Source: Piedraia hortae CBS 480.64
Lineage: Eukaryota
Assembly (NCBI GenBank): GCA_010093745.1
Contig: MU005963.1
Coordinates: 144,217 to 208,216 of the forward strand
Length of the DNA stretch: 64,000 nt
Direction of reading: 5' to 3'
The translations under genes and the position numbers were made by a program. Below, one piece after another: positions 6,427 to 64,000 of this stretch (positions are counted from its first letter, which is position 1; every line of letters starts with the position of its first letter). The notes under the pieces were generated by a model. The model was not told the DNA's origin. It saw only the letters and a list, made by a program, of their open reading frames with translations, and did no database searches.

Positions 6427-6568
6427 TGTAGCCATGTAGAACCATTTCCCTTGATTCGCTACTTTGCTTCTATCCGACAGAGTTTCTTGTGGGTCCTATC
6501 TAACCACTGTGGGCCTCCACATCCTACCCCAAGCCGTATACGACTCACTCAACCACAACTCGCCCACC

Positions 6569-32496: not shown

Positions 32497-32669
32497 GATG
32501 ACATTGTTCTTAACATTGCGAATGAGTGTGTTTGCTGACTACCAGCAGTGACGGGTAGTCGTTAACATCTTTACGATTGTGATCTAAGCTGTGATGCCAT
32601 GACACGGAAATTTTTCGGAACGTTGAGGTCAAGTATTACGGTTACTCATTACACCCTTCAGCAGAGGGG

Positions 32670-36514: not shown

Positions 36515-38218
36515 ATGCCAACAACCACAACCCTGACCATAACCAACCCCCTTGTCAACTACCGCGCACTGATAGCAACCAAGCGAATCGTACCAGACCA
36601 AGCTCAACTGCGTCTAGCTTTACACCTGGAAAAACTTTACGACCGATTGAAGAACTACGAGCCGGAAATCGAATACCGCGTTCGACTGAAGGAGGTTACA
36701 CGCACTATCAGCAATTCACCCAGCAATGTACCTCTATCATGGGGTTTTCCGAGAAGCAGACAGGACGCAACTTCATTAGCCTTAACCCGAAGATTAACGC
36801 ACCATGAATCCGCCGTACAGCTCAACTCGCCGCAAGGCCTCCTCCTACACGGCGAAGTCGGGACAGGAAAGTCAATGTTAATCGACCTCCTAGCCGATTG
36901 CCTCCCTACCGCCAAGAAGCGACGTCTCCATTTCAACACATTCATGTTAGAGATCCTCTCCAAACTAGAAACCTACCGCCTCCAACCCTCCACCTCCATC
37001 TCCGAACCGCCCGAAGAAAAATTCACCCTCCTGCGCCTAGCGCGGGAAATGATCCGCACGAATCCAATTCTCTTCCTAGACGAATTCCAAATGCCCGACC
37101 GCGCAGCATCCAAAATCCTCTCCCACCTCCTCACCGCATTCTTCCACCTTGGGGGCGTCCTTGTCGCAACATCAAACCGCATGCCGGAGGAACTAGCCAA
37201 AGCGTCCGGGTTGGCGATGCCCCCTCCGCGGAGGCTACTCTGGGGCAAGTTCCTCCCAGCGAAACCCTCCCTCGAAGGCCGAAACGAATTCGCCGACTTT
37301 CTCGAAGTTCTCAAAGCCCGCTGCGAGATCTGGGACATGACTACCTCCCACGACTACCGCCGTCGGGCAACCACTCCAGAATACTTCTCTCCCTCCCTCA
37401 AAATCCTCTCAAAATCCCTAAACCTTCCCACATCGACCCCCTGGCAAACGGACGAAATATGCATCTACTCCCGCAAGGTCACAATCCCGCGCCACTTCCG
37501 TGGCATCACAATGTGGACATTTTCCCAACTCTGCGAAGCGACCCTCGGACCCGCAGACTACCTCACCCTAGCAAGCAGATACCACACCTTCATCCTTACG
37601 CACGTCCCCGTCCTAACCACCAACCTCAAAAACGAGGCTCGAAGACTCATCACCCTTCTCGACGCGCTATATGAATGTAAATGCCGACTGTGTCTGCATC
37701 TCGAACAGAATATCCGGCCGGATGGGATTTTCTTTCCCGCGGATGAGTCGGCGGAGCAAAGGGAGGGGGGTGATGCGGTTTATGCAGAAACTGTGGCGGA
37801 GGTGTATCAGGATTTATCTGCGCCGTTTAGGCCGAATGTGCTGACGAAGAACCCCGAGTTTGGGGAGGAAAAGGGGGAGACATCAGTGGATTTTGGAAAG
37901 ACGGCGGCGTTCACGGGTGAGGATGAACGATTCGCATATAAACGCGCTCAGAGTAGGATTTGGGAGCTTTGTAGTAGGGAGTACTGGGAGAGGGTGAGAC
38001 ATGTTCCGCTTGAGAGGGGTAGGAGGGGGTGGGAGGGACGGAAAGGTCCAGTGCCGTTGGAGGGTTCGCATAAGGGGGGTAAGGGAAATGAGGATACTGA
38101 AGAGGCCAAGCCGAAATTCGATTTCACGCATTTCTGGGGCATGATGAAATGGGGTCGTCGAGCGGGAAATTGGGGCCAGGGCGTTGAAGGCGTAAAGGCT
38201 CGGCGAAAGGAAATGTGA
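36515..38218 (+). CDS. AFG1: AFG1/LACE1-family mitochondrial AAA+ ATPase
   Basis: Walker A GLLLHGEVGTGKSML, RLHFNTFM, Walker B ILFLDEFQ, VATSNRMPEEL, GPADY, ARRLITLLDALYE. Confidence 0.92.
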   Translation: MPTTTTLTITNPLVNYRALIATKRIVPDQAQLRLALHLEKLYDRLKNYEPEIEYRVRLKEVTRTISNSPSNVPLSWGFPRSRQDATSLALTRRLTHHESAVQLNSPQGLLLHGEVGTGKSMLIDLLADCLPTAKKRRLHFNTFMLEILSKLETYRLQPSTSISEPPEEKFTLLRLAREMIRTNPILFLDEFQMPDRAASKILSHLLTAFFHLGGVLVATSNRMPEELAKASGLAMPPPRRLLWGKFLPAKPSLEGRNEFADFLEVLKARCEIWDMTTSHDYRRRATTPEYFSPSLKILSKSLNLPTSTPWQTDEICIYSRKVTIPRHFRGITMWTFSQLCEATLGPADYLTLASRYHTFILTHVPVLTTNLKNEARRLITLLDALYECKCRLCLHLEQNIRPDGIFFPADESAEQREGGDAVYAETVAEVYQDLSAPFRPNVLTKNPEFGEEKGETSVDFGKTAAFTGEDERFAYKRAQSRIWELCSREYWERVRHVPLERGRRGWEGRKGPVPLEGSHKGGKGNEDTEEAKPKFDFTHFWGMMKWGRRAGNWGQGVEGVKARRKEM

Positions 38219-47265: not shown

Positions 47266-49361
47266 TTAGGCGCCTCTCGCATAAGGGTGGAAACCACGAT
47301 GCCCCCCTCTCCCACCACCGCGATAATTCGCACCTGGTCGTCCCGCATTTCTCGGACCCGTGGGAGCATTAGCAGGGGCCTGAGGAGTGCCAGCCGCGGA
47401 TGGAGGCGTACCCGTCGCACCACCGCCACGTTGTCCTGCACCATAACCCCCTCTCATATGTCCCGGAGCGGGAACATCATCATACATCCCCTCCCATGAA
47501 CTGCTGTTTCCCATACCCATGCCCATGCCTATACCACCCATACCCATATTCATCCCCCCCATATCCTGCCCCTGATGCTGTCCCTCTTGACTAGGCGAAC
47601 CGGGATGCATCGGGGACCCATCCCCCGTGGAACTACTCGGCTGACCACCCATCATCTGTTGCATCATCCCCTGACGAGCCATCATCTGCTGCATCATAGC
47701 CGGATGCATTGCACCCATCCCGCCCATCGAATTCGCCGTCATCTGCTGCTGCATCATCTGGAAATACTGCTGCATGCGCTGCCAATAAGCCGCCATCATC
47801 GCAGGACTCATCTGTTGCCCTCCTGCGCCTGCGGTGCTCCCCGCGCGGTTAAAAAGCGGTCCTCCGCCGTTTTTGTTGAGTTTGTTAAGACCCCGGGGGT
47901 CTTGTTCTCTCATATCGCCGCGAGGCTGAGCACGTTTGATTTCTATGTATTTGTTGCAGATGGAGAGAGGTTGTTCGAGTGTGCGGTCTACGGCTGCGTC
48001 GTTGTCGAAAGTTACAAAGCCGAAGCCACGGGGACGGTTGGTGTTTTTATCCATCATGAGAGTTGCGTCTAGTACATTGCCGAATTGTTTGAAGTAGTTC
48101 TTAAACGTCTCTTGATCACATTCTTGGCTTACGCCCCCGACGAAGATCTTCGCTGTGCGTTCCTGCTCATCACGCGGGATGGCACGTTTGGGGTCGATCT
48201 GGGAGATGTATTAGTTGGGGTTGGGTTTTGGAGGTTGGGTGGGATATACCAGTTTGCCATCGAGCATATGCTCCTTTACCATGACGGTGTTGACATTTTT
48301 CGGGTCTTTGAAAGTGAGGAAGCCAAAACCTCGAGAGCGGCCCGTTGCTCCATCTCGCATCACCGTGCATTCAATGACTTCGCCGAATTGTGAGAAATAG
48401 GCTTTGAGGGATTCTGTTTCGAGGCGTTAGTTGCCTTTTTTTTTTTTTTGCTTGCATATTCGAGTCTCTTACCATCTGTAGTCTCCCAATTTAATCCGCC
48501 AATGAACATTTTACTACACCGTGTCAGCGAGTTGTTACATGATGGAGTTTTCCGGCAATTGTGTGCGTGCGTCGTGCGGTATATGGGTTGGATTCCCCAC
48601 GCAGATAATTTACGGTTCTCCCCAGATCAGCAGTGGTGAAGACAGTGACGATTGTCAGTTGCGCATATACTGGTGACTTGTGGATCTTTTGGACGCTAAT
48701 CAAAGCTTGGCAAGCGATATCTCATCGGCTACCTTGAGTCTGTCTCTGCTGTCTGCTATGACGCTAAGCTGTCGTTTATCGACATCATTGATAGCTAGAA
48801 GGTTTCTTTCTTTTGAGGTCCTGCATCTAAACCCGACAGTCCTCCATCCACGGGACATGACCCCAGGTATCAATTACAGTCCTCTGGTGATGCTCTCCCA
48901 CATAAAAGGGAGGCAATGCATATTTAAAAGATCGACTGCTAGGCTGATTCAAATGCGGTCTTCCGGCCATGCTTCGTCATGGTTGCTGTTTCATAACCCA
49001 CCGCACAAACGCACACACACAATCGCACTGGTGAAACTTACCCGTCATCCTTTTGCACGAACGGCCGTGCGGCGGGAGCACTGTCCGTACCGGTGTCGGA
49101 TCCATCGTAATCATAACGCACGTTTACGTCTGATTCGCTGTCTGCCGGTGGCTGCGCCGTGGATGTCACGACTGTCGCTTGACTGGTCTCATCCCGCTCG
49201 TGCTCCGGTTCCTGCTGTGCCGTTGTCGTCGTCGTCGTCGCTGCAGTTGCGGCGGCGGCGGCTGGGGCAGGCTGGGCCTCTGGTTTACTGGCTACAGGCT
49301 CTTCAACATCAGCATAGATGTCGGCGAACAAGTCATCGTCTTCGTAGCTTGCGTCCGCCAT
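47266..49361 (-). CDS. HRP1: Hrp1/Nab4-like tandem-RRM hnRNP; exons 49361-49042, 48513-48473, 48413-48250, 48198-47266
   Basis: EDDDLFADIY...KDDG|KMFIGGLNWETTD|ESLKAYFSQFGEV...RSRGFGFLTF...DGKL|IDPKRAIPR...RPRGFGFVTF...GFHPYAR (PY-NLS); all three introns GT-AG and frame-consistent. Confidence 0.93.
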
Positions 49362-51591: not shown

Positions 51592-52646
51592 TTAATCGTC
51601 TACATCCAGCAATTTGACCAGCCCCTCAGCCGGCGGCAAAAACTGTCTCAACTGCACCTTTGCCTCCTTAAAAATCCTCGCCGCGTCCGCATCCATGTAA
51701 TAACTCTGGCTATAAACGACCTCCGTGATCCCCGCCTGCACTATCTTGATCGTACACGTCAAACAGGGGCAAGTATTGCAATACAACACCGCACCGCCCC
51801 CAATCCTCTCCCTCCCCGCCTCCAAAAGCGCATTCTCCTCTGCATGAATACACAAACACGTACTCAACGCCGCACCCCCTCCCCCACCAGAATTACACCT
51901 CTCACACCCCCCCTCATTACAATTCCTCACGTTCCTCGGCGTGCCATTATATCCCGTCGAAATCACCCTCTTTTCCCTCACAATCACGCACCCAACTTGC
52001 CTCCTCATACAATTACTTCTCCTCGCCGCAAGACCCGCCAACTTCATAAAATACTGATCCCACGTCGGCCTTAGCCTCCTCTGATCCAACAAATCAACCC
52101 CGTCAAGCACAGCATACAACCTCTCCACCGAACTCGTAGCATTCAGAAGCTTAATCCCCGCGCGGGATTCCAATCCTGCGATCCCCGTCATGGGACTATA
52201 CAGCCTCTCATCATTCTTCAACACAAACTCCTCCAACGTCGGAGCAGGGCGTGAGGCTCTGTGACAGCAGTCCCTGAACCTTTCCCAGCGGAGGGTTATT
52301 GGAGCGTCGATGTAGATTAGGATGAAGAAGGGTCTTTGGGAGAGTTGATCGACGGTAGCTTCGTCGTAGATGGAGGATGTGACGAAGTTGGATTGCCAGT
52401 TTTTTAGTGCAAAGTCGAGGAGGGAGGAGATGGAGGGGAATTCTTTGGTGGGGTAGACGTGAGGTGTAGTGTCTGAGATTTCGACTTCTGGAGTGTGTTG
52501 GGTGGTGAGCTTGAGTTCGATAAAGTCGTGCTTGGATAGGAGGTGCTGTTTGACGGAGTTTTTGCCGGCGCAGACGCCTGACGGAGGGTTAGTTGATTGG
52601 GAGAGGGGAAGGGGGATGGAGTACCGCCGCAGATTCCGATTAGCAT
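51592..52646 (-). CDS. DCD1: dCMP deaminase; intron 52624-52578
   Basis: MLIGICG|GVCAGK P-loop-like N-domain; RPTWDQYFM, STGYNGTPR, CIHAEENAL, PCLTC. Confidence 0.94.
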
Positions 52647-53057
52647 TTGTGTTTTGGGTTGTCTTTGTGGAAATATGTGTGCGGGCGTGCTTGTGTTGTT
52701 TTGCTGTCCCCCTTGGGCAGGCACGCCGGAGCTGTGTGGTGTTGGCTATATTGTGTTTTGTCTATATGATGATTACTTACGGCCATAGGTTGCAGAGAAC
52801 AGAGGATCCCGTCCGCTCTCCTGAACTTAAGCTGCAAACCGGCGGATTAGTACTACGGTGGGTGACCACGTGGGAATCCCCGCTGCTGTAAGTTTTTTTT
52901 TTTTCCTTTTCCATCACTTTAACAAAAGTCACAAGGACTCGGAACTTTACCAATTATTCTTATCTGAGACTCTGCCAAGGTGGGCCGACCCCCGCTGTGG
53001 GGTAACTTCCAAGGTTCCACCAACCTGTCAGGTCTGTTTACAAACATTTACAACACA

Positions 53058-55283
53058 ATGTCGCTACAACCGATCCAGTATGCGCCGTGGCAGTCTGATG
53101 TCGAACTCGCGTTTTGCTCGGCGCTCGCGTCGTCCAAGGTCAACCATGATAAGCTTGACAGCTCAGCGCGAAAGGTACTGGGTCTGTACGAAGTAAACCA
53201 CAAGAACCCGCCGGAACGCAGCACGCGCATGCAGATACACGCCTCGGCGTTGACGGCCGATGAGTAGGTGAATAAATATACAGGGGACTTACGAGGCTGA
53301 GCGTTTGGTAGAAGTCCCCGGGGATATTACCGAGCTGAAGGGCTCATTCGGAATTACAACACCATGGAAGAGTACCGACATGTTGATAAATCGGCTCATA
53401 TTGAGCGAGCGGGTAAGACTATCCGGGACGCGATCAACGACGGGACGATTTACTCTTGTCCGAGTTTGTTGAGTTCGTTTTCGGCGGTTTGTTTTGTGGA
53501 TTTGAAGAAGTACAAGTTCTCGTATCATTTTGCGTTTCCGTGTATTCATTCGGACCCGCCGTGGAAGGCGAAGGGGGTTGAGACCGGGGGCGTGGTTCAG
53601 CATTTGGGATCGAGGGAGACGGAGGCTTTGGTCGACGTTGTGCAGACTTGGCGGTATGGTGTTGATTCTAGACAACATGGATTCTTCCTTGCGAAGCGGA
53701 TTAAGAAGGAGGTGTTGGAGGCTCAGTGGCGTCAGGGACCCGGACGGGGTGAGGTTGAGGAGGAACCTGATGATGATGGAAATATGAATATGGCTGCTCA
53801 ACGACGGCGTAAGTCGAGGACGCTGAGTCTAGGGGAACTTGGGTTCCTCTGGCAAGTTGCTCCGTTGGCGGAATATGAGAATGGGTTTTTCAATTCCGCT
53901 GATGAAGCTGATCGCTTTGTGTGCTTTGCTGACCCATCAACTTACCCTGCGAACCCGGCCTGGCCTCTGCGCAACTTACTGGTTCTGGTGCGGCAGAAAT
54001 GGAAATTGGATAAAGTCCAGGTGCTCTGTTATAGAGATGTCCACGTCCGACGAGAGCATCCGACTAGTTTGATTCTACAACTTGAATCGTCGGGCCCGAC
54101 ACAGCAAGATGGCCAATTCAAAGTTACGGGATGGGAACGCAATGAACAAAACAAAGTCATGTCAAAGACAATCGACCTAGCAGCATACATTGATCCGCTG
54201 AGACTGGCTGATCAGGCCGTCGATCTCAACCTCAAACTCATCAAGTGGCGCATCTCTCCTCATATCGACCTCGACATTGTCAAAAACACTTCCTGCCTCC
54301 TCCTCGGGGCCGGTACGCTGGGCTCGTACGTCGCTCGGGTACTGATGGGATGGGGCGTGCGTAACATCTCCTTTGTCGACAACGGCCGCGTTAGCTATAG
54401 CAATCCCGTCAGACAGCCGCTTTACGATTTCAAGGATTGCGAAAATGGCGGTGCGAATAAAGCAGAAAGAGCAGCAGACGTGCTTGCGGAAATCTTCCCC
54501 GGCGTTTACTCCCATGGATATAACATCTCCGTACCAATGGTGGGACATGCAGTCACCGACGAAGAGAAGATGAAGCACGATTTCGAAATACTAAAAGGAC
54601 TAATTGCCTCCCACGACGCTATATTCCTACTCCTAGACAGCAGAGAGGCGCGATGGCTGCCTACAGTCATGGCCAAAAGCTTGGGAAAAATCGTCATCAA
54701 CGCAGCTCTTGGATTCGACACCTACGTAGTCATGAGACACGGTCTCCGTCCTAACGATAACGAGGAAGAGCTGGGATGCTACTTTTGCTCCGATGTTGTA
54801 GCTCCAGCGGATAGCATGACCAACGCAACGTTGGACCAGCAGTGTACCGTCACACGACCGGGAGCAGCTCCTCTGGCTTCAGCATTTGCTGTTGAGCTGC
54901 TTGTCAGCATTGTGCAACACGAACTGAAAGCACGAGCACCAGCGCCTCCTGCACCAATCTCCATCGGGATCCAGAGTCCCCCACCGACTGACCCTTCCAT
55001 CCCAGGGAGCCATCCTCTAGGCACAGTCCCACATCAGCTTCGCGGATACATGTCCACATGGCAGACCATTCCCGTAACGAGCAAAGCGTATAACTGCTGC
55101 GCAGCATGCTCTCCAGCTGTCGTTGCCGAGTACGCACGCCGGGGATGGGAATTCGTCAAACGGGCCATGACGGAGCGGGGGTGGGTGGAAGAACTCAGTG
55201 GTCTGGCACAAGTACAAAGAGAAGCTGAGGCGGCGGAAAAGGAAATTGAAATTCTTTCTGATGACGAAGCGGAACTGGTGTAG
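53058..55283 (+). CDS. ATG7: Autophagy E1-like enzyme Atg7; intron 53264-53311
   Basis: KVNHDKLD, DLKKYKFSYHFAFP, DLNLKLIKWR, LLGAGTLG, SNPVRQ, catalytic LDQQCTVTRPG. Confidence 0.96.
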
Positions 55284-55384
55284 GATATTCCTTTGGACTG
55301 AAAATGAATTCTTTCTGACGTAGTCCACCCTTTTTGAATTCCCATCCCATCCCATTCCGCTTCCCCTTAATCCTCCCTCAAGAT

Positions 55385-56935
55385 CTACCCCCCAAAATCC
55401 CACCTCCCAAACCCCCCCCTCAACACCCTAGCATCTTTCTCCTCCTCCTCCAAACTCTGCACCACATCCCTCCACTCACTCCTCCCATCCAACCCCAACA
55501 AACCAGCAACAACCCGTCTCGGAAAGCGCACATCAAACCCCTCCCCCAACCCCATCTCCATCTCCTCACATCCGCCCCCCTCGTCCCAAATAAAAACCCT
55601 CAGCACCTCCCCCTCCAAACCATCCTTTACAAACCCACAATACCCCATCTCCCTCCCCTTCTCAACAAACGCCTCCCCCACACAGCCCGCCACACCCGCC
55701 GGCAACCCCACGACTTGCACGTGGAAATGCACTCCCCCCAGTCTACTGATCTCCCACCCCACCGCCCCTAGGTTCTTTTCCCTAAGCATCCCCACCACCG
55801 CTTCCTGATACTTCCTCATTTCGCGAAGCGCCTCTCCCTCCGGACAGAGAGGCGTATGGTCGAGGGGAATTATCATCACATGGCCGGGGATGGGGAGGTA
55901 ATCCCTCGTTAGGAGTGGACCGCGCGGGAGAGAAAGGTAGGCATGCTCCGCGATGGAGATGATTAAATGGGGGGTGGGGGTTGTGGAGAGACAGAGGAAA
56001 CATTCTTTCTGTTTCGGTTTGGGGGCACGACGGGGACGTTTTGAGGGAGGGGGAGGGGGAGGGGGAGGCATACTCCGCTTAAGTGCCTGCTGTGTAAAGG
56101 GGTTGGGCGTACACTTCGGGGTCACTGTAGGGGGCTTGAGGACGAAAGCGTACATGCTCTTTTGGGTGGTCGTGGAGAGGGAGATGAACCTCGTGATCCT
56201 CTCGGATGGAGGAGGGTAGGAAAAAGGCTCCCGCTCGTAGAAGCATTTGCTGACGGAGAAGTGGTACCGCGGCTGGAGGGCTTTTGTTAGTTTCGCGATT
56301 AGTGGGCTGGGTGTGTATCCCTCCGGGGATGGGAGGGTGGAGGCTTGGGCGACTCCTTCGGGCCAGTCGTGAGTTAGGAGGATGTCGACTCCATGGGGAT
56401 ATTTCGTGGTCAGGGGGGGGAGGTCGGTGGGTGCGTATGGTACTTTTTTTGCTGCGTTGGGATGGTGAGTTTCTTTGTCAGCGGCAGATGCGTTTCCGTT
56501 TGCGTCGTTTTTGGTCTCGCACTCGCCTTCGCTCGCGCACGTCCCGCCCAACGCGGCGATAGCTGTGCCTTCAAGGGTAGTGATGCTTCCGCGTTGGCCT
56601 AGAAAGGTTATACCTTCGACGATCTCGCCGTCGGGGTGCGAGGCTAGGTGCTGGGCGAGTTGACTCGGGAGCTCGGTCGAGCCTTGGGTAAAGTAGATGG
56701 GTAGACCTGCTGGGTAGGGGATTTTTCCGGAGAGGAGGGCAGGTATTTCGGGAGCAGTGCTGGGCGGAAAGAGGTTCAATATCACCGCAAAGGTGAATTT
56801 TTGCTTGGTGTGTAGTATTGTGAGCTTTTCGAAGAGAAAGGCGAGGGTGCTGTTGTTGGTGAGGACTATTCTGTTTTGCGGTGAGTTTTGGGTTTAGGTA
56901 GGTTGGAGGACGGACATTTTGGGATACGTTGCCAT
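55385..56935 (-). CDS. CWF19L1/Drn1-like CwfJ-domain splicing/debranching-associated protein; intron 56915-56871
   Basis: VDILLTHDWP, PRYHFS...FYEREPF, TRFISL, CFLCLS, GHVMIIP, HFHVQ, FPRRVVA, EEEEKD. Confidence 0.87.
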
Positions 56936-57146
56936 GGCTGGGTCTGAATGGGGTTTGAATATGGTTGGTTGTCGTTACAGTAGCTACGTGACAACCTATG
57001 AGATTAGGGTTGGTGGTGCGTCGAGATGGAGGCCGCCCGGAAAAAAAAAAATCTGTGCGATGCGAGCTTGAACAAGTGACTGTCCGAACGTTATAGGAGG
57101 GTCTTCCCATTATATGATGAAGACTTTACTCATACAAACATAAAAA

Positions 57147-58613
57147 TTAAAGCTGCCTAGACCCAATGCTAACGTCCAACCGGGAGATGAGGTAGCTCGC
57201 AGAGAAGATGGCAATCATTGTCGCAAAGATGGAGAGAGGCTTGCGCAGTTGGCCGGAGAGGGGATAATCGTAGCGTACGACTAGCTCGCCTTCCATTTCA
57301 TCGACGACATTTTTCGCCTCGACGGTAACCGTTGTACGCCCGACGGTGTCTAAAAAGGTCCTGTACAGTCCCGTGCGGTTATTCGTCGTGGGGACTTGGG
57401 TCTCGTACTCGACGTTTCTATCTCATTAGCTTCTCATTTACACCATCGTAGGCAAAACGTACCGAGCACCCTCCGGGAGAATCACGGTGGTGACTATTTT
57501 CTCATAAGCCACGCCCTCGGCCTGACGCGGTCCCTCAAAGAATGGAATCTTCAAAACGTAACCGCTTCCAGCGTGACGGAGGAATTTGCCAAGCTCATTG
57601 TTCCACCCCACCCGGAAACTATACTTCCACGCGCCAAAAAGCGGATACCGCGGCCGTATGTCTATTGTGGACGCTCTTGAATCAGCACGGAAGTTTGATG
57701 TTGATACATTGCCAATGTCGTCGACAAAGTAGGCGTCTGAGCTACCGGGAGCGAGGACGAAGTGCATTTCTTTGAGTGCACTAATGGCTGGGTTGAAAAA
57801 GGCGCTTTTTTGGTAGGAGACGCGGCTAAAGTGGTTCTTTAGAGACGCGGCACGGTTGGTCAGCCAGAAGCGTTCTTCAGTAGCCATGTTGCCGCCCCAA
57901 TGCGATACTTCAGCCTCGCGCTCCAACAGCGTGCAGTACGTCAGCGGCTTGGTAAATTCATACCGCACACTGACCTCGTGTTGCTTTCCAGCCTCGACGT
58001 TCTCAAATGGGCCATATGTAAACGCCGTGCCTTGCTTCTGCGGACTCTCCTCGCTGCCGACTTTGAGAGTTGTCACGTCTGGGGCATCCGTCGTGGGCAG
58101 CTTCAGCTTCGTCTTTTGCTTTGCAGTCGTGTAGGTGCTAGGGGCGTAGGCGGAAAATTTGTGCACCACGTATTGCTTATCGGACTGGTCGATTTGTGCC
58201 GGCAGCGGCTGGAGAGCGCCGAGGACGTAGTATGAGATGGAAAGCGTCACTTGACCCTTTGGCGGTACTGGGTCCGGCAGCGAGATCTTGTAGTAATCCG
58301 ACCCCCAAATTTCGGCGAAGAAGGTTCCCCGCCCGGTGTCCTTCTTGTCTTTGGCGGTAAACCCGCCGACGCGGTCTAGCGTCCCCGGCTCGAAGCGCAG
58401 GTAATAGTCCCAGTGGGAGGTAGAATCGACATTTTCAGCTATGACATTGACCGTTTCCCGCGCATAACTCTTGTCCAAGTTGACGTTTCGCACGAGATTG
58501 ACGTTGCGCCAGTGTTGTAGCGGGGCAGACACGGGGATCGGGGAGTGAACGTGTAAACTACTGTTGAATTCGGCCGCGGCGACAGCCAGCAGCGGCCACA
58601 GGAACAACCGCAT
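57147..58613 (-). CDS. OST1: Oligosaccharyltransferase alpha subunit (ribophorin I); intron 57462-57418
   Basis: Signal peptide MRLFLWPLLAVAAA, EVSHWGGNMATEE, DDIGNVSTSNFR, RPRYPLFGAWKY, ILPEGAR|NV, FLDTVGR, C-terminal TM helix. Confidence 0.94.
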
Positions 58614-58683
58614 GGTTGGTGGTTGCGGTGGTGGAAGTGAAGACGTGGCAGCAGAATCCGGAAGGTTTGCCGAAGCCACCACA

Positions 58684-60841
58684 ATGTTGCGCACCGTAGC
58701 AGCGTCGGGCAGAAGATGGGTCGCTAGCAGAAGATGGATATCTAATTATCAGGTCTCGGAAGAGGTGCAGCAGGCTATCGCAGAGCATCGTCCCGTTGTT
58801 GCCCTTGAATCCACCATCTACACTCATGGCTTTCCATATCCCGATAACCTAACACTTGCCAAACGACTAGAGTCACTTGTACGTTCTAATGGAGGTGTGC
58901 CAGCAACTATTGCCATTTTGGATGGAATTGCAAGGGTGGGCTTGTCCCCAAACGAACTCGAACAGCTCGTCAACCGTCCTGCACTCAAAGTCTCGCGAAG
59001 AGACTTGGGCTTTGCCTGTGCCTTGACTGCTCCCGATGGCAGACGGATGAATGGAGGGACAACAGTATCAGGAACCATGATCCTGGCCCATCGAGCAGGG
59101 ATTCGTATCTTTGCTACTGGAGGCCTTGGGGGCGTACACCGCGGCGGGGAGGTGACCATGGACGTCTCAGCAGACCTTACAGAGCTTGGCCGGACACCAG
59201 TTGCTGTTGTCAGCTCCGGGTGCAAATCGTTTCTGGACATTCCTCGCACACTAGAATATCTAGAAACTCAAGGCGTAGCTGTGGCTACTTTTGCTCAGGG
59301 TAGGAAGGATGTAGATTTTCCCGCTTTCTACACCCGCGAGAGCGGGATAGCGTCTCCTAATATCATTCGAGATGAAAAAGAAGCAGCTGCCGTGGTGCAC
59401 GCCCATCTCTCTCTCGGCTTGCAATCGGGCCTACTCTTTGCAAATCCCATCCCAGAACAGCATTCCATTCCGCTAGCCGATATGGAGGTTGCCATTGCAG
59501 AGGCATTGAGAGAGGCCCCTAGTGGTGCCTCCAGTACGCCCTATATCCTCGCCAAAATCTGCAGTCTCACAGGCAGCAAAAGTCAGGAAGCCAATATTGC
59601 TCTTGTCGAGGACAATGTCATCCGCGGTGCCAAAATGGCAGTTTCTCTGGCCAAACTAGAGCAGTACGTCTTTTCATAAAGTTTCGAACGGTGCTCAGTG
59701 TGTTAGGGAAAGCAGCAGTGCTGCCATCAACTCCATCAACAACACCCCCAACCAACCCCCACCCCTCCAAACAGCAAGCATCTTCGTCGTAGGCAGCATA
59801 AACCTCGACACGATCTGCACGCTCCCATCCTCCCCAGAATTCCACACCTCCAACCCCTCCAAAATGCACACCTCCCTCGGCGGGGTGGGATATAACATCG
59901 CTCTCTCCGCTCACTTGACCGGCGGTAGTGTCCTCCTTTGCAGCGCTCTCGGCGACGATCCCTTGGGAACCTCCACCCTCACCACCCTCCAAAACTCCAC
60001 CCTCCCAACCACCTGTATCGCCATCCTCCCCGGCTTGCCTACATGTCGCTACATAGCCCTCAACAACCCCGATAATTCCCTCCTCCTCGCAACAAGCGAT
60101 ACATCCCTTCTCTCCCAAACCCTCAATATCTTCCACGAAATCTGGCTCCCCGCCCTACAGTCCCACAAACCAAGCCACATTGTGCTCGACGCGAACCTCC
60201 CCCCCGAAGTCCTACAACTCTGGCTTGCAGCAGCGAGAGCCCTAAACGCGCATATAACCTTCGAGCCGGTCAGCACGACCAAGGGGTGTGCGCTCTTTAC
60301 CCAAAATTTGACTGTCTACCCGGACCACACCATAGATCTCATCACCCCTAATGGACAAGAACTTACCGCTATGCACTCCGCCGCGAGAAAAAGCGGCCTC
60401 TTTGAGAGAAAGGACTGGTGGGAAGTGATCAACGCGCTCGGCATCCCCCCATCGAGTGGGGCGAGGGAGTTGAAGGCACTTAGCAGTGAAAGCCTCGTGG
60501 AGAGGGGTGTTCCGCAGCAGTGTATCCAGCTCCTGCCGTTTTTTCCAACGGTTTGTGTGAAGTTGGGGGGGGAGGGGGTGCTTGTTGTGCGGTTGGTAAG
60601 CCATGACAAGGGGAAGGGATTGGGTTACGAAATGAGACTTTTCCCACCCCCGGACGTGGAGAGGGCGAGGAGTGTTAATGGTGCTGGGGACGCGTTTGTG
60701 GGGGTTTTGGTTCGGGAGTTGAGTGAGGGTAGGAGTGTGGTGGAGGGGATGCCGATGGCGTTGAGGGCCGCGGGGGTTACGTTGGAGACGGAAGGAGGAG
60801 TGGGGGATTTGAGGGTTCTGAATTATGAGAGGGGGGGTTGA
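58684..60841 (+). CDS. Bifunctional pseudouridine-5'-phosphate glycosidase (PsuG/IndA) - PfkB-family pseudouridine kinase; intron 59664-59706
   Basis: PVVALESTIYTHGFPYP, GGTTVSGTM, FATGGLGGVHRG, DVSADLTEL; after a 43-nt intron IFVVGSINLD, GGVGYNIA, VKLGGEG, SVNGAGDAFVG. Confidence 0.92.
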
Positions 60842-60980
60842 TTGTGTGGAGGTGTATGGATGTCGTCTGGTAATATGTGCACTGTGAAGATAAAATGGGG
60901 ACTTTTACATCTCTTCGATCTTTTACGTCTGTGAACTGCCCCCCTCACCCATCCTTCTCCATAAACCAACATCACCCATC

Positions 60981-63900
60981 CTAGTATCCTCTCCTCCTCC
61001 CTCGTCCCCTCTCATTTTTCTCCCTTTTCTTATTCTTCTCCCGCTCCCTCTTCCTCCTCTTCAACTCCCCCACCTTTACCGGGTCCGTAACAGCCTCAAT
61101 GCGTCTCTTCTGCCTCCGTTCATCCCTCCTCTCCCTCGCTTGCGCAGTAGCGATCCTCATCGCATTATTAAACCCTTCTGCCCCACCAGTAGCCTTTGTC
61201 CTCAACAAATCCAAAATTTCATGTGCGAGCGCGACGATGGGTTTATAACTCCCTGGCAAGGCGGCAACGGGGCTGGTTAGGGCTAGTAAAGGGCGGAGGA
61301 GAGCTGCCCCATCGCTGAGATTGACACCCTCACTCCCAGTGAGGTTATCGGTCTCACTTTCAGCCTGCGGAGCGTCTTGTTCAGTCTGCGGAGCATCCTT
61401 CCCTCCCAAATTGATAGCTCTTTGCGAAGCCTTAACCACATCCCTGAACGTTGTCCCTGCCGCCTCCTTGGTCGAGACAGTGACGGTCTCATCGACAAGC
61501 ACCCTCCCCAGCGGGAGCAGGAGGGGTTCCTCCACCCCGATTCCATTGAGGGAGAAGATCTTTCCGAGGAAGACGATGAGTTGGTGTACCGTCTCGCTTT
61601 CGGAGGAGTCGGTGGAGGGAAGGGCAAGCAGCCCTTTTTCCGCATACATTCGCATCTCCCCTTCTGTAATTTCCAACCCTCCCTGACTTAGCGGAAGCGC
61701 CGCCAAATCACACCCACGCCTCGCAAAATGGGAGAGATATAGAATCGTCAACCGCGCCGCGAGTGTCGTCCCCTCCGCAAACCACTCCGGGAGTTGTTTC
61801 CACAAGGGTGCTGCCTCCCTCGCGAAAGCAATCTCAGGATACGTTTCCACGAGAACGATCAGCGTCTCTAGCGCGGTAGCATCCCCGTCCCTTGACAGAA
61901 CCCCCTCCAGCTTGTGACGAAGTTCCTTTACCTCCTGGATGGGAACTTCCACCGTGCGAAGAAGAGCCATCCACGTCTTCACCGCCGCATTCCTCACCGC
62001 AGTGTTGTCACTTCCCATCCACTCTCTCATCGTGTCAAGCAACTCACTCTTCCTCCCCGTCAGGGTATAAACCTTTCCGATCAACGCGCCGGCCATATCC
62101 CTACACACCTCCTCCGAGTCGCCGTTGTGGGTTAATTGTAATGACACAAAAAGCGTAAACGCCAACTTATCAATCTCCTCACCCGACAGCTTTCCCAGCA
62201 GGGTATGCATAACCTCCATCACACTAATCCTCCCACTCGCGTGATTATAGCTTAGATTAGTAGTTAGAAATGCTATGCATTTCTTCCACCTCTCACTCCC
62301 CATCGGGTAGTTTAGTATAAAAATCGTATACACGCTTCGCGCGCTTGCTCGGATTTCTGCATCGGGGTTGACGATCGCTACTTCGCCGACAGTGTCCATG
62401 CACTCGTACACCTCGGGCGTTACGATTTTTCGGGATAACACCGTGCGGAGGAATTTGTAGACCATTCCCTGGTCGTCAGGGCTGTCGAGGGAGGTTGAGA
62501 GGGTTTTAAGGATTTGGGCTAGTTTTTTGGGTGGAAGGGTGTAACTTTTTTCGCGGAGAAGGGAGGTTAGGAGTTCGAGACCCGCTCGCGCAGAGGGGGA
62601 GCTCATGCTTGGTGAACCCAGGATTGTGGCTACGGCTTCGCTTGCGTAAACTGGGAGTGCGGGTTCGAGTTCGGGTAATGGTAAAAGGAGGAGGGTGGAG
62701 AGGAGTTTCATGGAGGCAATTTTGACGTCCTCGTGCCCTTCGACTAAGGCGTCGCCAACTACGGGGAGGAAGGCGGACATGTTGGAGGCGGTGAGGAGGG
62801 CGGGGTGCCGACGGGTTGTTTTTTGGATTAGATTTAGTGCGAAGGCGACGAGTTTGTGTTGTTGAGATGAGGTCGTTGTGGGTGTGGATTTGGCGGGCTG
62901 TTTGATTAGGAAACGGCGGGCTTTGGCATCGGGTTCTTTCTGGGCGCGGGAGGAGGTTTCATTGTAGGCCCCTCGGATGATTTCGTGGGAGAAGACTAGG
63001 ATATCCCTCGTCCCGGCCACGGCGTTTTGGTCGATTCCCTTGCGCAGACGGGAAAGCACTTCATCTATCTTGTTGAGCATGCGTGAGTCTAGCTTCTCGC
63101 CGAGAAGTGCACATATCGGCTTGACGAGCAGCCACAGCTTACCAACCGGTGTAAATTTTGCCAGCAGTTCGATAGTGTTAAAACTCTTCCCAGCTTTGAC
63201 TTCTAGCTTCGCACTCTTGTACTCCTCCGCGTCTTTCTCTTGCCCAACAGTACCAAAAATGTCATCCATAACAATCGACATCAAATCTGACAGACACGGA
63301 TCCAAGTCTCCGGGCTGACACGTCTCACACAACTTCACCAGCAGCGAGTGAACCGTAAAAGACAGCACATGCAGCTGATATCCCCTCTGCAACGCCCTCT
63401 TCAGCTCCCTCACCACAAAAGTCAAATAAGCCGGTCCCAGCAGCGACAGGATCGTAGCGAGCGTCTTTCTCGCCTCATCGCGCGCCTCCTGCGCCTTACT
63501 CCGTAGAACCTGACACACATCCGTCAGCAACGGCGTCAGTCTCGTCTCCACCTCATCCTCCGGCAACAACAACATCAACTTCACAATCGAAACCGCAACC
63601 GGCATCCTCCGATCAACAGTCGACTCATCCGTGTGATGAACATACGCCAACAACGGCGGCAAAAACTCTTCCGTCACAACCCTCGAACGATCCCCCTTAG
63701 GCATAGCATCAACCAACGCCCCAATAACCCTCAACACCACTTTCTCCATTTCCATCTTCGAGATAAACCCAATATACCTCCTAAACGTTGCCCGAAAAAC
63801 CTGCCAGTTGAGCGACGCACCCAACGCCCCAATCGTAATCACACTCTGATCCGCGAGCGTCCGTCCGCTATCCCCCTCCGCGGGATCAAACACAAAATTC

Positions 63901-64000
63901 TCAACCAGCGGCAGCCAAAATTTTGCCACATTACCCGAACTTATCTTTTCCGCGGCGTCAGCCAGTCTCCTCAACGCCCGCAACCTCCGGTGCGTCTGAA
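60981..64000 (-). CDS. UTP20: 3' part of SSU processome HEAT-repeat protein Utp20 (partial, enters from window edge)
   Basis: LRSKAQEARDEARKTL, LQRGYQLHVLSFTVHSLL, DDIFG..GQEKDAEEY, YNHASGRISVME, basic C-terminal tail. Confidence 0.92.
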   Translation of the reverse strand, partial: QTHRRLRALRRLADAAEKISSGNVAKFWLPLVENFVFDPAEGDSGRTLADQSVITIGALGASLNWQVFRATFRRYIGFISKMEMEKVVLRVIGALVDAMPKGDRSRVVTEEFLPPLLAYVHHTDESTVDRRMPVAVSIVKLMLLLPEDEVETRLTPLLTDVCQVLRSKAQEARDEARKTLATILSLLGPAYLTFVVRELKRALQRGYQLHVLSFTVHSLLVKLCETCQPGDLDPCLSDLMSIVMDDIFGTVGQEKDAEEYKSAKLEVKAGKSFNTIELLAKFTPVGKLWLLVKPICALLGEKLDSRMLNKIDEVLSRLRKGIDQNAVAGTRDILVFSHEIIRGAYNETSSRAQKEPDAKARRFLIKQPAKSTPTTTSSQQHKLVAFALNLIQKTTRRHPALLTASNMSAFLPVVGDALVEGHEDVKIASMKLLSTLLLLPLPELEPALPVYASEAVATILGSPSMSSPSARAGLELLTSLLREKSYTLPPKKLAQILKTLSTSLDSPDDQGMVYKFLRTVLSRKIVTPEVYECMDTVGEVAIVNPDAEIRASARSVYTIFILNYPMGSERWKKCIAFLTTNLSYNHASGRISVMEVMHTLLGKLSGEEIDKLAFTLFVSLQLTHNGDSEEVCRDMAGALIGKVYTLTGRKSELLDTMREWMGSDNTAVRNAAVKTWMALLRTVEVPIQEVKELRHKLEGVLSRDGDATALETLIVLVETYPEIAFAREAAPLWKQLPEWFAEGTTLAARLTILYLSHFARRGCDLAALPLSQGGLEITEGEMRMYAEKGLLALPSTDSSESETVHQLIVFLGKIFSLNGIGVEEPLLLPLGRVLVDETVTVSTKEAAGTTFRDVVKASQRAINLGGKDAPQTEQDAPQAESETDNLTGSEGVNLSDGAALLRPLLALTSPVAALPGSYKPIVALAHEILDLLRTKATGGAEGFNNAMRIATAQARERRDERRQKRRIEAVTDPVKVGELKRRKREREKNKKREKNERGRGRRRGY

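What the first reader, a model, noticed from the sequence alone, without database searches (positions are those of the whole stretch)
51592..64000. Kilobase-scale wave of C/A-rich to G/T-rich strand asymmetry crossing genes of both orientations
Seen: on the + strand composition alternates in 0.5-1.5 kb blocks. Approximate blocks are C/A-rich 51600-52230, G/T-rich 52240-52760 and 53400-53900, C-rich 55340-55840, G-rich 55860-56950, C-rich 59710-60260, G-rich 60400-60860, C-rich 60930-62330, G-rich 62340-63060 and C-rich 63140-64000. The C-to-G flips are sharp and lie inside CDSs on both strands. They affect synonymous sites (CTC/ACC/CCC versus TTG/GGG/AGG/GAG), introns and amino-acid composition. 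Other genes (NBR1, most of APC1, GCD6, ARI1) show little skew. Inference: each flip behaves like a centre of bidirectional strand-asymmetric mutation or repair. Candidates are fixed replication origins (same sign as leading-strand G/T skew), break/repair hotspots or R-loop/G4 sites; selection for mRNA fold-back is an alternative. I do not know a description of this at such strength in fungal genes.
Basis: partly seen in the sequence, partly recalled or inferred. Interest (0 to 1): 0.75.

Follow-up and report, generated by a model that had tools for sequence, protein, structure and literature searches.

The report
Extreme within-gene C-to-G strand skew
In this fungus many genes switch abruptly from C-rich to G-rich on their coding strand about half a kilobase before the stop codon; this is an unusually strong case of a fungal gene-body composition bias that is already described but still unexplained.

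Summary
35 of 425 300-nt windows exceed |GC skew| 0.4, against 0.66 expected. The skew is at least as strong at 4-fold sites and is seen in 5 of 6 introns inside or beside skewed blocks.

The window is Piedraia hortae. The wave is tied to genes, not to free-standing centres. The coding strand is C/A-rich upstream and G/T-rich in the last ~0.5 kb. This pattern reads the same on both strands, so it seems to ignore gene orientation. 9 of 12 C-to-G flips lie 150-750 nt upstream of the host gene's own stop (P=1.5e-4).

80 orthologous dCMP deaminase loci from other fungi show the same 5'-to-3' trend at 4-fold sites, with P. hortae the most extreme. This matches McLean & Tirosh 2011.

Not covered by that paper as read:
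- step-like switches;
- mirror-image composition of the two block types;
- reversed or internal blocks in ATG7, UTP20 and APC1.

Replication origins, hotspots and mRNA fold-back are not supported. The mechanism is unresolved.

The parts
51592..52237 (-). 3' G/T-rich block (sense strand) of the dCMP deaminase gene; reads as C-rich on the + strand
   Evidence: + strand skew -0.51; 4-fold sites G54 C8 A8 T16. Pfam dCMP_cyt_deam_1.
52238..52780 (-). 5' C/A-rich block of dCMP deaminase: exons 1-2, the 47-nt intron (52577-52623) and the 5'UTR with its intron (52732-52780). The step lies at about 52242.
   Evidence: 4-fold sites G2 C35; intron core skews -0.91 and -0.69; step model, fraction G 0.00 to 0.88 at 52242. 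Introns from RNA contigs.
53400..53900 (+). G/T-rich block in the 5' third of ATG7. This is an exception to the 5'-C / 3'-G rule.
   Evidence: +0.34; 4-fold skews +0.60, +0.70 and +0.80 over 53301-53840. Gene start and intron 53264-53311.
55330..55841 (-). 3' G-rich block of the CWF19-like gene, including at least ~55 nt of 3'UTR
   Evidence: + strand skew down to -0.83; 4-fold G45 C5; sequence; step at 55843, fitted width 13 nt.
55842..56950 (-). 5' C-rich block of the CWF19-like gene, including intron 56871-56915
   Evidence: 4-fold G30 C101; intron core skew -0.88.
59314..60382 (+). C-rich block in the second half of the spliced IndA-PfkB gene
   Evidence: segment skew -0.32; 4-fold G13 C82 from 59708. 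The fusion is shown by the RNA joint 59663/59707.
60383..60860 (+). 3' G-rich block of IndA-PfkB. It ends at the 140-nt spacer to the convergent UTP20 gene.
   Evidence: +0.50; 4-fold G40 C9; fitted sigmoid width 94 nt, the only gradual switch.
60981..62414 (-). UTP20 3' part. On the sense strand it is G-rich at 61660-62414 and 60981-61120, and near neutral between.
   Evidence: 4-fold skews +0.54, +0.44, +0.62, +0.52, then -0.21, +0.22, -0.18, then +0.75.
62415..63100 (-). Internal C-rich block (sense strand) of UTP20
   Evidence: 4-fold G15 C77; amino-acid replacements against 50 orthologues run 52 toward C and 27 toward G.
63101..64000 (-). Upstream G-rich block (sense strand) of UTP20. The G-to-C change inside the CDS lies at about 63060-63140. 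The block runs off the window.
   Evidence: 4-fold skews +0.75 to +0.91. The ORF is continuous and an RNA contig is continuous over 62546-64000.
6455..7552 (+). PhyH gene, outside the finding's range: the same C-then-G pair, with a step at about 6947
   Evidence: (G12 C52 against G53 C10).
22923..23929 (-). APC1 3' end: an 0.8-kb C-block followed by a 0.2-kb G-block, at the end of an otherwise neutral 5.6-kb gene
   Evidence: 4-fold skews -0.6, -0.9, -0.8, -0.8, +0.4, +0.8 after about 30 neutral bins..
30700..32538 (-). EF-Tu-like GTPase gene: C-block then G-block, with a step at about 31362
36503..38215 (+). AFG1 ATPase gene: C-block then G-block, with a step at about 37664
47269..48210 (-). 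RRM protein gene: a weaker C-then-G pair, with a step at about 47859

Best explanation
The 'wave' is the per-gene form of the fungal gene-body GC-skew pattern, here unusually strong. In Piedraia hortae the coding strand of many genes is C/A-rich upstream and switches to G/T-rich for roughly the last 0.2-0.7 kb before the stop codon. A C-block followed by a G-block reads the same after reverse complementation. Genes of either orientation therefore give a C-to-G flip on the + strand, and neighbouring genes string these pairs into a wave.

Shown:
- The skew acts on nucleotides, not on protein or translation: it is seen at 4-fold sites, introns and UTRs.
- It is anchored to gene 3' ends.
- It recurs in the orthologous gene of other fungi.
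- It is stronger in this lineage and has dragged amino-acid composition with it.

Inferred (about 0.35 as a sub-claim): the two block types have mirror-image base composition, so one transcription-linked, strand-asymmetric mutation or repair process probably acts with opposite polarity in the two blocks. One possible arrangement is sense transcription dominating upstream and antisense transcription from the 3' gene end dominating the last ~0.5 kb.

Relative to neutral segments, the net flows implied are T to C and G to C on the C-rich strand (equally, A to G and C to G on the G-rich strand). This assumes the neutral segments are a fair baseline.
For: Identity. The CWF19-like and dCMP deaminase proteins are 100% identical to Piedraia hortae CBS 480.64 entries.

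Gene anchoring (24 approximate gene models).
- Pooled sense-strand skew rises from -0.15 (900-600 nt before the stop) to +0.27 (last 150 nt), then falls to -0.02 after the stop.
- The last 150 nt are G-biased in 19 of 24 genes.
- 9 of 12 called flips lie 150-750 nt upstream of the host gene's own stop, against 22% of positions (binomial P=1.5e-4).

Nucleotide-level action. At 4-fold sites the C-blocks hold G172 C649 A278 T178 and the G-blocks G480 C107 A112 T202. 5 of the 6 introns inside or beside skewed blocks follow the local sign.

Mirror symmetry. All-site composition is A.246 C.382 G.160 T.212 in C-blocks and A.197 C.161 G.389 T.253 in G-blocks.

Orthologues. In 80 metagenomic dCMP deaminase loci, pooled 4-fold skew along the gene runs -0.29, -0.40, -0.41, -0.27, -0.24, -0.13, +0.08, +0.30. 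The 3'-minus-5' difference is positive in 56 of the 76 measurable loci. P. hortae is the most extreme, +1.63 against a maximum of +0.99.

Gene-specific proneness is conserved. In the 22 syntenic loci examined, the convergent TBC-GAP gene stays mostly near neutral even where dCMP deaminase is strongly C-biased; five of its half-gene values exceed |0.35|.

Lineage-specific protein drift follows the blocks. For UTP20, the mean profile of 50 orthologues is about flat (one bin -0.30, one +0.32). P. hortae replacements run 52 toward C and 27 toward G in the C-block, against 72 and 79 in the G-blocks (Fisher P=0.012). dCMP deaminase gives 14:10 against 7:16 (P=0.08).

Literature. McLean & Tirosh 2011 (PMC3315797; parts 1-3 of 4 read) describe a 5' C-bias and 3' G-bias of the coding strand in most fungi. 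They report that it affects 4-fold sites, amino-acid use, promoters and 3'UTRs.
Against: - ATG7 has a G-block in its 5' third.
- UTP20 alternates G, C, G inside one continuous CDS.
- APC1 is neutral for about 4.7 kb and carries a C/G pair only at its 3' end. A plain 5'-to-3' gradient does not predict these three cases.
- Five of 24 genes lack a G-biased end, and several genes are neutral throughout.
- A step fits better than a logistic gradient in 6 of 7 genes, with fitted widths of 0-13 nt. The published description is of averaged ramps. So sharp a boundary is also not what a fuzzy meeting zone of sense and antisense transcription would give.
- At 4-fold sites AT skew flips with the blocks (+0.22 against -0.29), whereas McLean & Tirosh report uniform AT skew. 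The pooled all-site AT skew here is uniform and positive.
- No data on strand, transcript start sites or expression level could be obtained; the RNA run is held as unstranded contigs. The transcription link and the antisense idea are therefore untested here.
- Only 64 kb (24 approximate gene models) of this genome were available.
- Many of the 80 loci are near-duplicates, so they are not independent.
Confidence: 0.75

Rival explanations
1. Selection on the DNA or the nascent RNA rather than mutation bias. G-rich 3' ends would promote R-loops and efficient Pol II termination in a very compact genome, with C-rich bodies avoiding R-loops. Alternatively, C is avoided near 3' ends because CTP is limiting (the adaptive hypothesis of McLean & Tirosh).
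For: - The G-blocks sit at 3' ends, where neighbouring stop codons are only 28-206 nt apart.
- 4 of the 6 canonical G4 motifs in the window lie on the sense strand of 3' G-blocks.
- Ginno et al. 2013 (PMC3787257, abstract read) report terminal GC skew with R-loops in closely spaced human genes.
- P. hortae has the smallest genome of 101 Dothideomycetes (PMC7082219, passages read).
Against: - Across the orthologous loci, 3' skew shows no visible relation to the distance to a convergent neighbour. Loci with 3-80 nt spacing have skews from -0.48 to +0.09 (by inspection, no formal test).
- In four of five convergent pairs only one partner carries a long G-block.
- Internal and 5' G-blocks (UTP20, ATG7) have no termination role.
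- G-blocks are not merely C-poor. G doubles, A halves, and the composition mirrors that of the C-blocks. Neither selective idea predicts this.
Confidence: 0.15
2. Two different transcription-phase-specific mutation or repair regimes (initiation and elongation against termination factors on Pol II), as McLean & Tirosh proposed, rather than one process with reversed polarity.
For: Same gene-anchoring evidence as above. The hypothesis is stated in PMC3315797.
Against: - The near-exact mirror composition of the two block types is not expected from two unrelated regimes. At 4-fold sites the C-blocks are C.51 A.22 T.14 G.13 and the G-blocks G.53 T.22 A.12 C.12 (fractions computed from the counts).
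- The G-blocks in the 5' third of ATG7 and in mid-UTP20 are far from any termination zone.
Confidence: 0.07
3. One reading: each flip is a fixed replication origin, or a break/repair hotspot, that throws strand-asymmetric mutation in both directions.
For: The sign of the jump (C/A to the left, G/T to the right on the + strand) is that of origin-associated skew jumps (recalled knowledge; Touchon et al. 2005 appears in the reference list seen). The mirror-image composition fits a polarity switch.
Against: - There are 12 flips in 64 kb, one per 5.3 kb. This is much denser than the tens-of-kb origin spacing known in yeasts (recalled knowledge).
- Each arm lasts only 0.2-1.5 kb, and most arms end at gene boundaries.
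- The flips are anchored upstream of stop codons (P=1.5e-4).
- The same trend follows the orthologous gene into other genomes, with and without conserved neighbours.
- For 5'-resected breaks, deamination of the exposed strand would give the opposite sign (inference).
Confidence: 0.03

Closest known systems
Opposite GC skews at the 5' and 3' ends of fungal genes (McLean & Tirosh 2011, BMC Genomics 12:638; PMC3315797; parts 1-3 of 4 read)
   Same: The coding strand is C-biased 5' and G-biased 3'. The bias is present at 4-fold sites, extends into non-coding parts of the transcript, and shifts amino-acid use (for example W and G toward 3' ends). It is found in filamentous ascomycetes, including Dothideomycetes. 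The mechanism is unknown.
   Different: - Strength: pooled 4-fold skew is -0.58 against +0.64, and single 41-60-codon bins reach -1.0 and +1.0.
- The switches are step-like within tens of nucleotides, not the averaged ramps described.
- At 4-fold sites AT skew flips together with GC skew, whereas the paper reports flat AT skew.
- Skewed blocks have higher GC at 4-fold sites than neutral segments (0.64-0.65 against 0.52).
- Some genes carry internal or 5' G-blocks.
C-over-G strand bias around transcription start sites in plants and fungi (Fujimori et al. 2005; recalled, and cited as reference 9 in PMC3315797; not read here)
   Same: The coding strand is C-rich near the 5' ends of genes, including 5'UTRs (dCMP deaminase 5'UTR and intron).
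   Different: That description concerns the TSS neighbourhood only. Here C-blocks can fill most of a gene, or sit 1 kb before the stop of a long, otherwise neutral gene (APC1).
Terminal GC skew and R-loops at 3' ends of closely spaced human genes (Ginno et al. 2013; PMC3787257; abstract read)
   Same: G exceeds C on the non-template strand at 3' ends of genes in gene-dense surroundings.
   Different: In human genes the 5' skew is also G-positive, whereas here the upstream part is C-rich. R-loops were not tested here. Among orthologous loci there was no relation to neighbour distance.
Replication-associated skew jumps at origins (bacterial Lobry-type skew; mammalian skew N-domains; recalled)
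   Same: The sign of the upward jump, and the coupling of G with T.
   Different: The scale differs (0.2-1.5 kb arms against tens of kb to megabases). The flips are anchored to stop codons, and the pattern is conserved along an orthologous gene in other genomes.

Membership tests
Fungal gene-body GC-skew gradient (McLean & Tirosh 2011) | The coding strand is C-biased toward the 5' end and G-biased toward the 3' end. | tested here: met
   pooled skew -0.15 rising to +0.27; 19 of 24 genes G-biased in the last 150 nt; 9 of 12 flips lie 150-750 nt before the host gene's stop. Exceptions are the ATG7 5' G-block, the UTP20 G-C-G alternation and five genes without a G-biased end.
Fungal gene-body GC-skew gradient (McLean & Tirosh 2011) | The bias is present at 4-fold degenerate positions. 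| tested here: met
   G172 C649 against G480 C107 over nine genes, each with Fisher P of 3e-4 or less.
Fungal gene-body GC-skew gradient (McLean & Tirosh 2011) | The bias extends into non-coding transcribed sequence (UTRs, promoters). | tested here: met
   5 of the 6 introns inside or beside skewed blocks follow the local sign; the CWF19-like 3'UTR and the dCMP deaminase 5'UTR are skewed. No intron lies inside a 3' G-block, so that block type rests on UTR and 4-fold sites only.
Fungal gene-body GC-skew gradient (McLean & Tirosh 2011) | The bias shifts amino-acid use in the direction of codon skew. | tested here: met
   G 2.5x, W 2.1x, E and V 1.7x in G-blocks; H, T and P about 0.5x; replacements against orthologues follow the blocks.
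Fungal gene-body GC-skew gradient (McLean & Tirosh 2011) | AT skew is roughly uniform (A over T) along genes. | tested here: inconclusive
   The pooled all-site sense AT skew is uniform, +0.03 to +0.15. At 4-fold sites it flips: +0.22 in C-blocks against -0.29 in G-blocks, Fisher P=5e-12.
Fungal gene-body GC-skew gradient (McLean & Tirosh 2011) | The pattern recurs across fungal species. | tested here: met
   56 of 76 measurable orthologous loci show a positive 3'-minus-5' difference, and the pooled profile runs -0.4 to +0.3.
Replication-origin skew jump | Skew of one sign persists over the replicon arm (tens of kb or more). | tested here: not met
   strongly skewed arms of 0.5-1.5 kb; 12 minima in 64 kb.
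Replication-origin skew jump | The position is independent of gene ends and is not carried with a gene into other genomes. | tested here: not met
   P=1.5e-4 for anchoring upstream of stops; the trend follows the orthologous gene.
Replication-origin skew jump | The jump coincides with mapped origin activity (ORC/MCM, nascent strands). | not testable with these tools
   No such data are held.
R-loop-linked terminal GC skew (Ginno et al. 2013) | R-loops form over the G-skewed 3' end. | not testable with these tools
   No DRIP data. Only the composition (G over C on the non-template strand at 3' ends) is met.
Repeat-induced point mutation (RIP) | C-to-T transitions give AT-rich sequence with depleted CpA/CpG-type dinucleotides in repeated DNA. 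| tested here: not met
   GC is 0.52-0.58 in the blocks. CpG observed/expected is 0.99 and 1.04, and CpA 0.99 and 0.87. The genes are single-copy housekeeping genes.

The most novel reading that the evidence does not exclude
The blocks are footprints of a single strand-asymmetric process whose polarity flips at discrete points. The genome would then be tiled by 1-2 kb units, each C-rich then G-rich in its own reading direction. G-to-C boundaries would be bidirectional initiation zones, and these would include sites inside long coding regions (about 63100 in UTP20, about 53900 in ATG7, about 23900 in APC1) and the spacers between convergent genes. The near-zero width of the C-to-G steps would need a self-reinforcing mechanism, for example G-rich RNA favouring R-loops that expose the same strand to further change. 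If so, P. hortae sequence alone would map sense, antisense and cryptic transcription units, and would offer a handle on the unexplained fungal gene-body skew.
Probability: 0.2. Interest if true: 0.7.

Novelty: new member of a known kind. Interest (0 to 1): 0.4.

Why it matters
The cause of the 5'-C / 3'-G skew of fungal genes has been open since it was described in 2011 (mutational or adaptive). In the searched library only four papers hold the title phrase of that paper: the paper itself and three others. In Piedraia hortae the signal is close to saturation at synonymous sites and switches within tens of nucleotides. Single genes are therefore informative, not only genome averages.

This makes the species a good test case. 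Stranded nascent-RNA, TSS, 3'-end and R-loop maps, or mutation-accumulation lines, could show directly whether a change of transcription direction, of Pol II phase, or selection sets the boundaries.

There are also practical consequences:
- The bias measurably drives protein divergence. The CWF19-like protein finds only itself in word-seeded searches.
- Skewed blocks are poor in stop codons, which gives spurious ORFs on both strands.
- It probably contributed to a public dCMP deaminase model that reads through an intron.

Tried and rejected
- Whole genome: none is held for this window, so no genome-wide statistics were possible. Everything rests on 64 kb and 24 approximate gene models. Models for 1-44 kb come from stop-to-stop ORFs and Pfam only.
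- Expression, strand and TSS evidence: no RNA holder was listed. Run X2, whose kind was guessed as RNA, shows 13 joints with GT..AG or CT..AC ends that the DNA run lacks, so it holds spliced transcripts. It is kept as unstranded contigs, which cannot show starts, ends, strand or level. The antisense idea could not be tested.
For the 1017-nt dCMP deaminase mRNA the native MFE is -354.4. Ten within-block shuffles gave -339.6 +/- 7.1 and ten whole-sequence shuffles -351.3 +/- 8.9 (mononucleotide shuffles). The block arrangement brings no energy gain. Rejected as a driver, on one gene only.
- Long inverted repeats across flips: only 13 short (16-35 nt) imperfect pairs were found, several of them C-run/G-run low-complexity matches. 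Rejected.
- Motif at the flips: none is evident in nine aligned flips, by eye.
- G4 motifs: 6 in 64 kb, none at a flip.
- Methylation or RIP-type deamination: CpG observed/expected is about 1. Rejected.
- Convergent-neighbour distance as the cause of 3' G-blocks: no visible relation across the orthologous loci with a measurable stop (by inspection, no formal test).
- Amino-acid test for the CWF19-like gene: two searches found only the protein itself, so no orthologue alignment was made.
- Earlier findings of this scan: nothing on this genome. The word search returned only prokaryotic replication-skew notes, which were not used.
- Literature on nuclear GC skew in Dothideomycetes: 31 papers hold both terms, and the 15 listed are mitochondrial or general genome papers. 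The P. hortae genome paper has no occurrence of 'skew'. I saw no description of this species' skew. Supplements were not opened.

Full report
**1.

GC skew runs from -0.75 to +0.50 at an unchanged GC content of 0.52-0.58, and AT skew has the opposite sign in 9 of the 10 blocks.

Across the whole window, 35 of 425 300-nt windows exceed |GC skew| 0.4, with a maximum of 0.85. Within 51592-64000 the count is 18 of 81. In 200 shuffles within 3-kb chunks the mean count was 0.66 and no window passed 0.50. A cumulative-skew zigzag (reversal of 60 or more) gives 26 extremes, against a mean of 9.2 in shuffles.

The pattern is not special to 51.6-64 kb. The same 'C-block then G-block' pairs occur at about 6.9, 23.1, 31.3, 37.7 and 47.9 kb.

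The sequence is matched by contigs of a DNA run and of a second run from another study. The second run carries spliced joints, and the only differences lie inside a 5S rRNA repeat. The DNA run may be the source of the assembly.

**2. Organism and genes.**

Two encoded proteins are 100% identical to entries of Piedraia hortae CBS 480.64. This is a Dothideomycete with the smallest genome (16.95 Mb, 7,572 genes) among 101 sequenced members of the class (PMC7082219, passages read). That paper has no occurrence of the word 'skew'.

Pfam hits and ORFs, together with spliced RNA contigs, give the following genes in and just before the region:

| Gene | Strand |
|---|---|
| TBC-GAP | + |
| dCMP deaminase | - |
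| ATG7 | + |
| CWF19-like | - |
| OST1 | - |
| IndA-PfkB (one spliced gene) | + |
| C-terminal 1005 codons of UTP20 | - |

Stop codons of convergent neighbours are only 28-206 nt apart.

**3. The skew acts on nucleotides, not through protein or translation.**

At 4-fold degenerate sites of nine genes, the composition is as follows:

| Segment type | G | C | A | T | GC skew | GC at 4-fold sites |
|---|---|---|---|---|---|---|
| C-blocks | 172 | 649 | 278 | 178 | -0.58 | 0.64 |
| G-blocks | 480 | 107 | 112 | 202 | +0.64 | 0.65 |
| Neutral stretches of APC1 and UTP20 | 258 | 217 | 210 | 236 | +0.09 | 0.52 |

Per-gene Fisher tests give P from 3e-4 to 7e-27.

Five of the six introns inside or beside skewed blocks follow the local sign. 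Core skews are -0.91, -0.69, -0.88 and -1.00 in C-blocks, and +0.44 next to the ATG7 G-block. The IndA-PfkB intron (+0.14) does not follow.

The CWF19-like 3'UTR and the dCMP deaminase 5'UTR are skewed as well.

Amino-acid use shifts in the direction of the codons. G is 2.5 times, W 2.1 times, and E and V 1.7 times commoner in G-blocks. H, T and P are about half as common.

**4. The wave is anchored to genes.**

A C-block followed by a G-block is its own reverse complement in composition. A gene that is C-rich 5' and G-rich 3' on its coding strand therefore gives a C-to-G flip on the + strand whichever way it points. This explains why the pattern seemed to ignore orientation.

With 24 approximate gene models:
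- Pooled sense-strand skew rises from -0.15 (900-600 nt before the stop) to +0.27 (last 150 nt), and drops to -0.02 just after the stop.
- The last 150 nt are G-biased in 19 of 24 genes.
- 9 of 12 called flips lie 150-750 nt upstream of the host gene's own stop, whereas 22% of window positions lie in such zones (binomial P=1.5e-4).
- The three that do not are 33335 (outside any model), 43446 (GCD6, near its 5' end) and 62414 (UTP20, 1.4 kb from the stop).

Of the 13 G-to-C maxima, nine fall at or near gene boundaries by my reading. These include the convergent 3' ends at about 47157, 51332 and 60900, and the divergent 5' ends at about 1345, 35552 and 42862. Four lie inside genes: 23929 in APC1, 53923 in ATG7, 59314 in IndA-PfkB and 63000 in UTP20.

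**5. The same trend follows the gene into other fungi.**

A scan of metagenome contigs with an alignment of dCMP deaminases returned 80 loci at 48-72% identity. Codons were mapped by tblastn.

- Pooled 4-fold GC skew along the gene runs -0.29, -0.40, -0.41, -0.27, -0.24, -0.13, +0.08, +0.30.
- The 3'-minus-5' difference is positive in 56 of the 76 measurable loci and negative in 20. Many loci are near-duplicates, so these are not independent counts.
- P. hortae is the most extreme: +1.63 against a maximum of +0.99. Its 3' block reaches +0.74 against a maximum of +0.43.
- Several loci (L010, L002, L013, L069) also switch from about -0.8 to +1.0, but at a different codon than P. hortae. The switch is therefore not a conserved site.
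- In about 4 kb around the gene, the median maximum |skew| over the 60 loci of at least 2.5 kb is 0.32. The value is 0.65 in P. hortae and 0.67 in the strongest locus.
- In the 22 syntenic loci examined, the convergent TBC-GAP gene stays mostly near neutral where dCMP deaminase is strongly C-biased, as in P. hortae. Five of its half-gene values exceed |0.35|. Proneness to skew is thus a conserved property of the gene.
- The strength of the 3' skew shows no visible relation to the distance to a convergent neighbour (by inspection).

**6. The bias is stronger in this lineage and has moved the proteins.**

For UTP20, the mean codon-skew score of 50 orthologues is about flat across the blocks (one bin -0.30, one +0.32). 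P. hortae deviates upward in the first G-block and downward in the C-block. Replacements against the orthologue plurality run 52 toward C and 27 toward G in the C-block, against 72 and 79 in the two G-blocks (Fisher P=0.012). In the second G-block alone the balance is 44:36, slightly against the expected direction.

For dCMP deaminase the counts are 14:10 against 7:16 (P=0.08). The first few replacements in that count come from a mis-modelled N-terminus.

The CWF19-like protein finds only itself in two word-seeded searches, although Pfam recognises CwfJ_C_1.

**7. What is known.**

McLean & Tirosh 2011 (PMC3315797; parts 1-3 of 4 read) describe the following for 'almost all unicellular fungi', in a data set that includes many filamentous ascomycetes. 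The coding strand is C-biased at the 5' end and G-biased at the 3' end. The bias affects 4-fold sites and amino-acid use, and extends into promoters and 3'UTRs. The cause is unknown. They offer two explanations: different mutational regimes in different Pol II phases, or C-avoidance because of limiting CTP.

The finding belongs to this pattern.

**8. What that description does not cover.**

- **(a) Strength.** The signal is far stronger here than in most orthologous loci examined.
- **(b) Shape.** A two-level step fits the 4-fold G/C series better than a logistic gradient in 6 of 7 genes (BIC lower by 4.5-27). Fitted transition widths are 0-13 nt, with PfkB at 94 nt. The published ramps may be averages of steps at variable positions.
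- **(c) Mirror symmetry.** All-site composition is A.246 C.382 G.160 T.212 in C-blocks against A.197 C.161 G.389 T.253 in G-blocks. The 4-fold sites behave likewise. AT skew at 4-fold sites flips from +0.22 to -0.29 (P=5e-12), whereas the paper reports flat AT skew. The pooled all-site AT skew here is flat and positive.
- **(d) Exceptions to the 5'-C / 3'-G rule.** There is a G-block in the 5' third of ATG7. UTP20 alternates G, C, G inside a continuous CDS. APC1 is neutral for about 4.7 kb and then carries an 0.8-kb C-block and an 0.2-kb G-block at its end.

**9. Mechanism.**

Shown: the bias acts on nucleotides, is tied to genes, and is partly specific to this lineage.

Inferred: the mirror symmetry argues for one strand-asymmetric process acting with opposite polarity in the two block types, rather than two unrelated regimes. 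Relative to neutral segments, C doubles while G and T halve and A is unchanged in C-blocks. This implies net T-to-C and G-to-C change on the C-rich strand (equally, A-to-G and C-to-G on the G-rich strand). GC rises rather than falls, and CpG is not depleted. Plain cytosine deamination to T, methylation or RIP therefore do not explain it.

The polarity switch most compatible with gene anchoring is a change of the dominant transcription direction, sense upstream and antisense from the 3' gene end. I could not test this, because the only RNA data are unstranded contigs. The very sharp steps are not what a fuzzy meeting zone would give.

Selection for R-loop-assisted termination is a live rival (compare Ginno et al. 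2013, abstract read). It explains neither the mirror composition nor the internal blocks.

**10. Ideas rejected.**

- **Replication origins or hotspots.** There are 12 flips in 64 kb with arms of 0.2-1.5 kb. They are anchored to stop codons, and the trend is carried with the orthologous gene into other genomes.
- **mRNA fold-back.** The native MFE is -354. Within-block shuffles gave -340 +/- 7 and whole-sequence shuffles -351 +/- 9, on one gene with mononucleotide shuffles.
- **Inverted repeats.** Only short imperfect matches were found, several of them C-run/G-run low-complexity pairs.
- **G4 sites at the flips.** Six motifs occur in the window, none at a flip.

**11. Verdict.**

This is a real and striking signal, and an extreme member of a known but unexplained fungal phenomenon. 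It is not a new kind of element and not a set of origins. Its value is as a high-contrast test case for the cause of gene-body skew.

Limits:
- Only 64 kb of the genome were available.
- Gene models are approximate.
- One gene was compared at the DNA level across species, and two at the protein level.
- No strand-resolved transcription data were available.

Noticed in passing
window 52775-52894 (+) and 18931-19050 (-): Two 5S rRNA genes (Rfam RF00001, 90.9 and 60.7 bits). The first lies in the divergent spacer between dCMP deaminase and ATG7. It is high-copy in the DNA run (depth 316 against about 12, with many loose ends), as expected for dispersed 5S genes.
   Followed up: partly
window 52577-52780 (-): The public protein model of dCMP deaminase (381 aa, starting MALRRACPRG) reads through a 47-nt C-rich intron that RNA contigs splice out. 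The orthologue consensus N-terminus (MLxGxCGGICAGK) instead fits the ATG at 52645 plus that splice. The stop-poor skewed sequence probably misled the gene caller.
   Followed up: partly
window 55319-55808 (+), 52211-52745 (-), 62506-62958 (-), 63507-63998 (+): Skewed blocks are poor in stop codons in several frames. This gives low-complexity ORFs of 90-165 aa in other frames or on the opposite strand that overlap real genes. They are very likely spurious.
   Followed up: no
window 55388-56893 (-): The CWF19-like protein finds only itself in two word-seeded searches of 5.8 billion proteins. Pfam CwfJ_C_1 matches (E=3e-20), and CwfJ_C_2 falls just under its cut-off. The protein looks strongly diverged, and its C-terminal part is very G/E/V/R-rich.
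   Followed up: partly
window 58549-60841 (+): The Indigoidine-synthase-A-like (pseudouridine glycosidase) ORF and the PfkB kinase ORF are joined by a 43-nt intron (59664-59706) into one transcript. This is a fused bifunctional gene.
   Followed up: partly
loci L003-L030 (22 syntenic metagenomic loci): The convergent arrangement of dCMP deaminase and TBC-GAP is conserved in many other fungi. TBC-GAP stays mostly near neutral at 4-fold sites even where its neighbour is strongly C-biased.
   Followed up: partly
window 48514-49041 (-): RNA contigs show a 528-nt skip with CT..AC ends upstream of the RRM-protein gene. It is far longer than the other introns seen here (43-59 nt) and overlaps a + strand ORF (48677-49369) that has no Pfam hit.
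   Followed up: no
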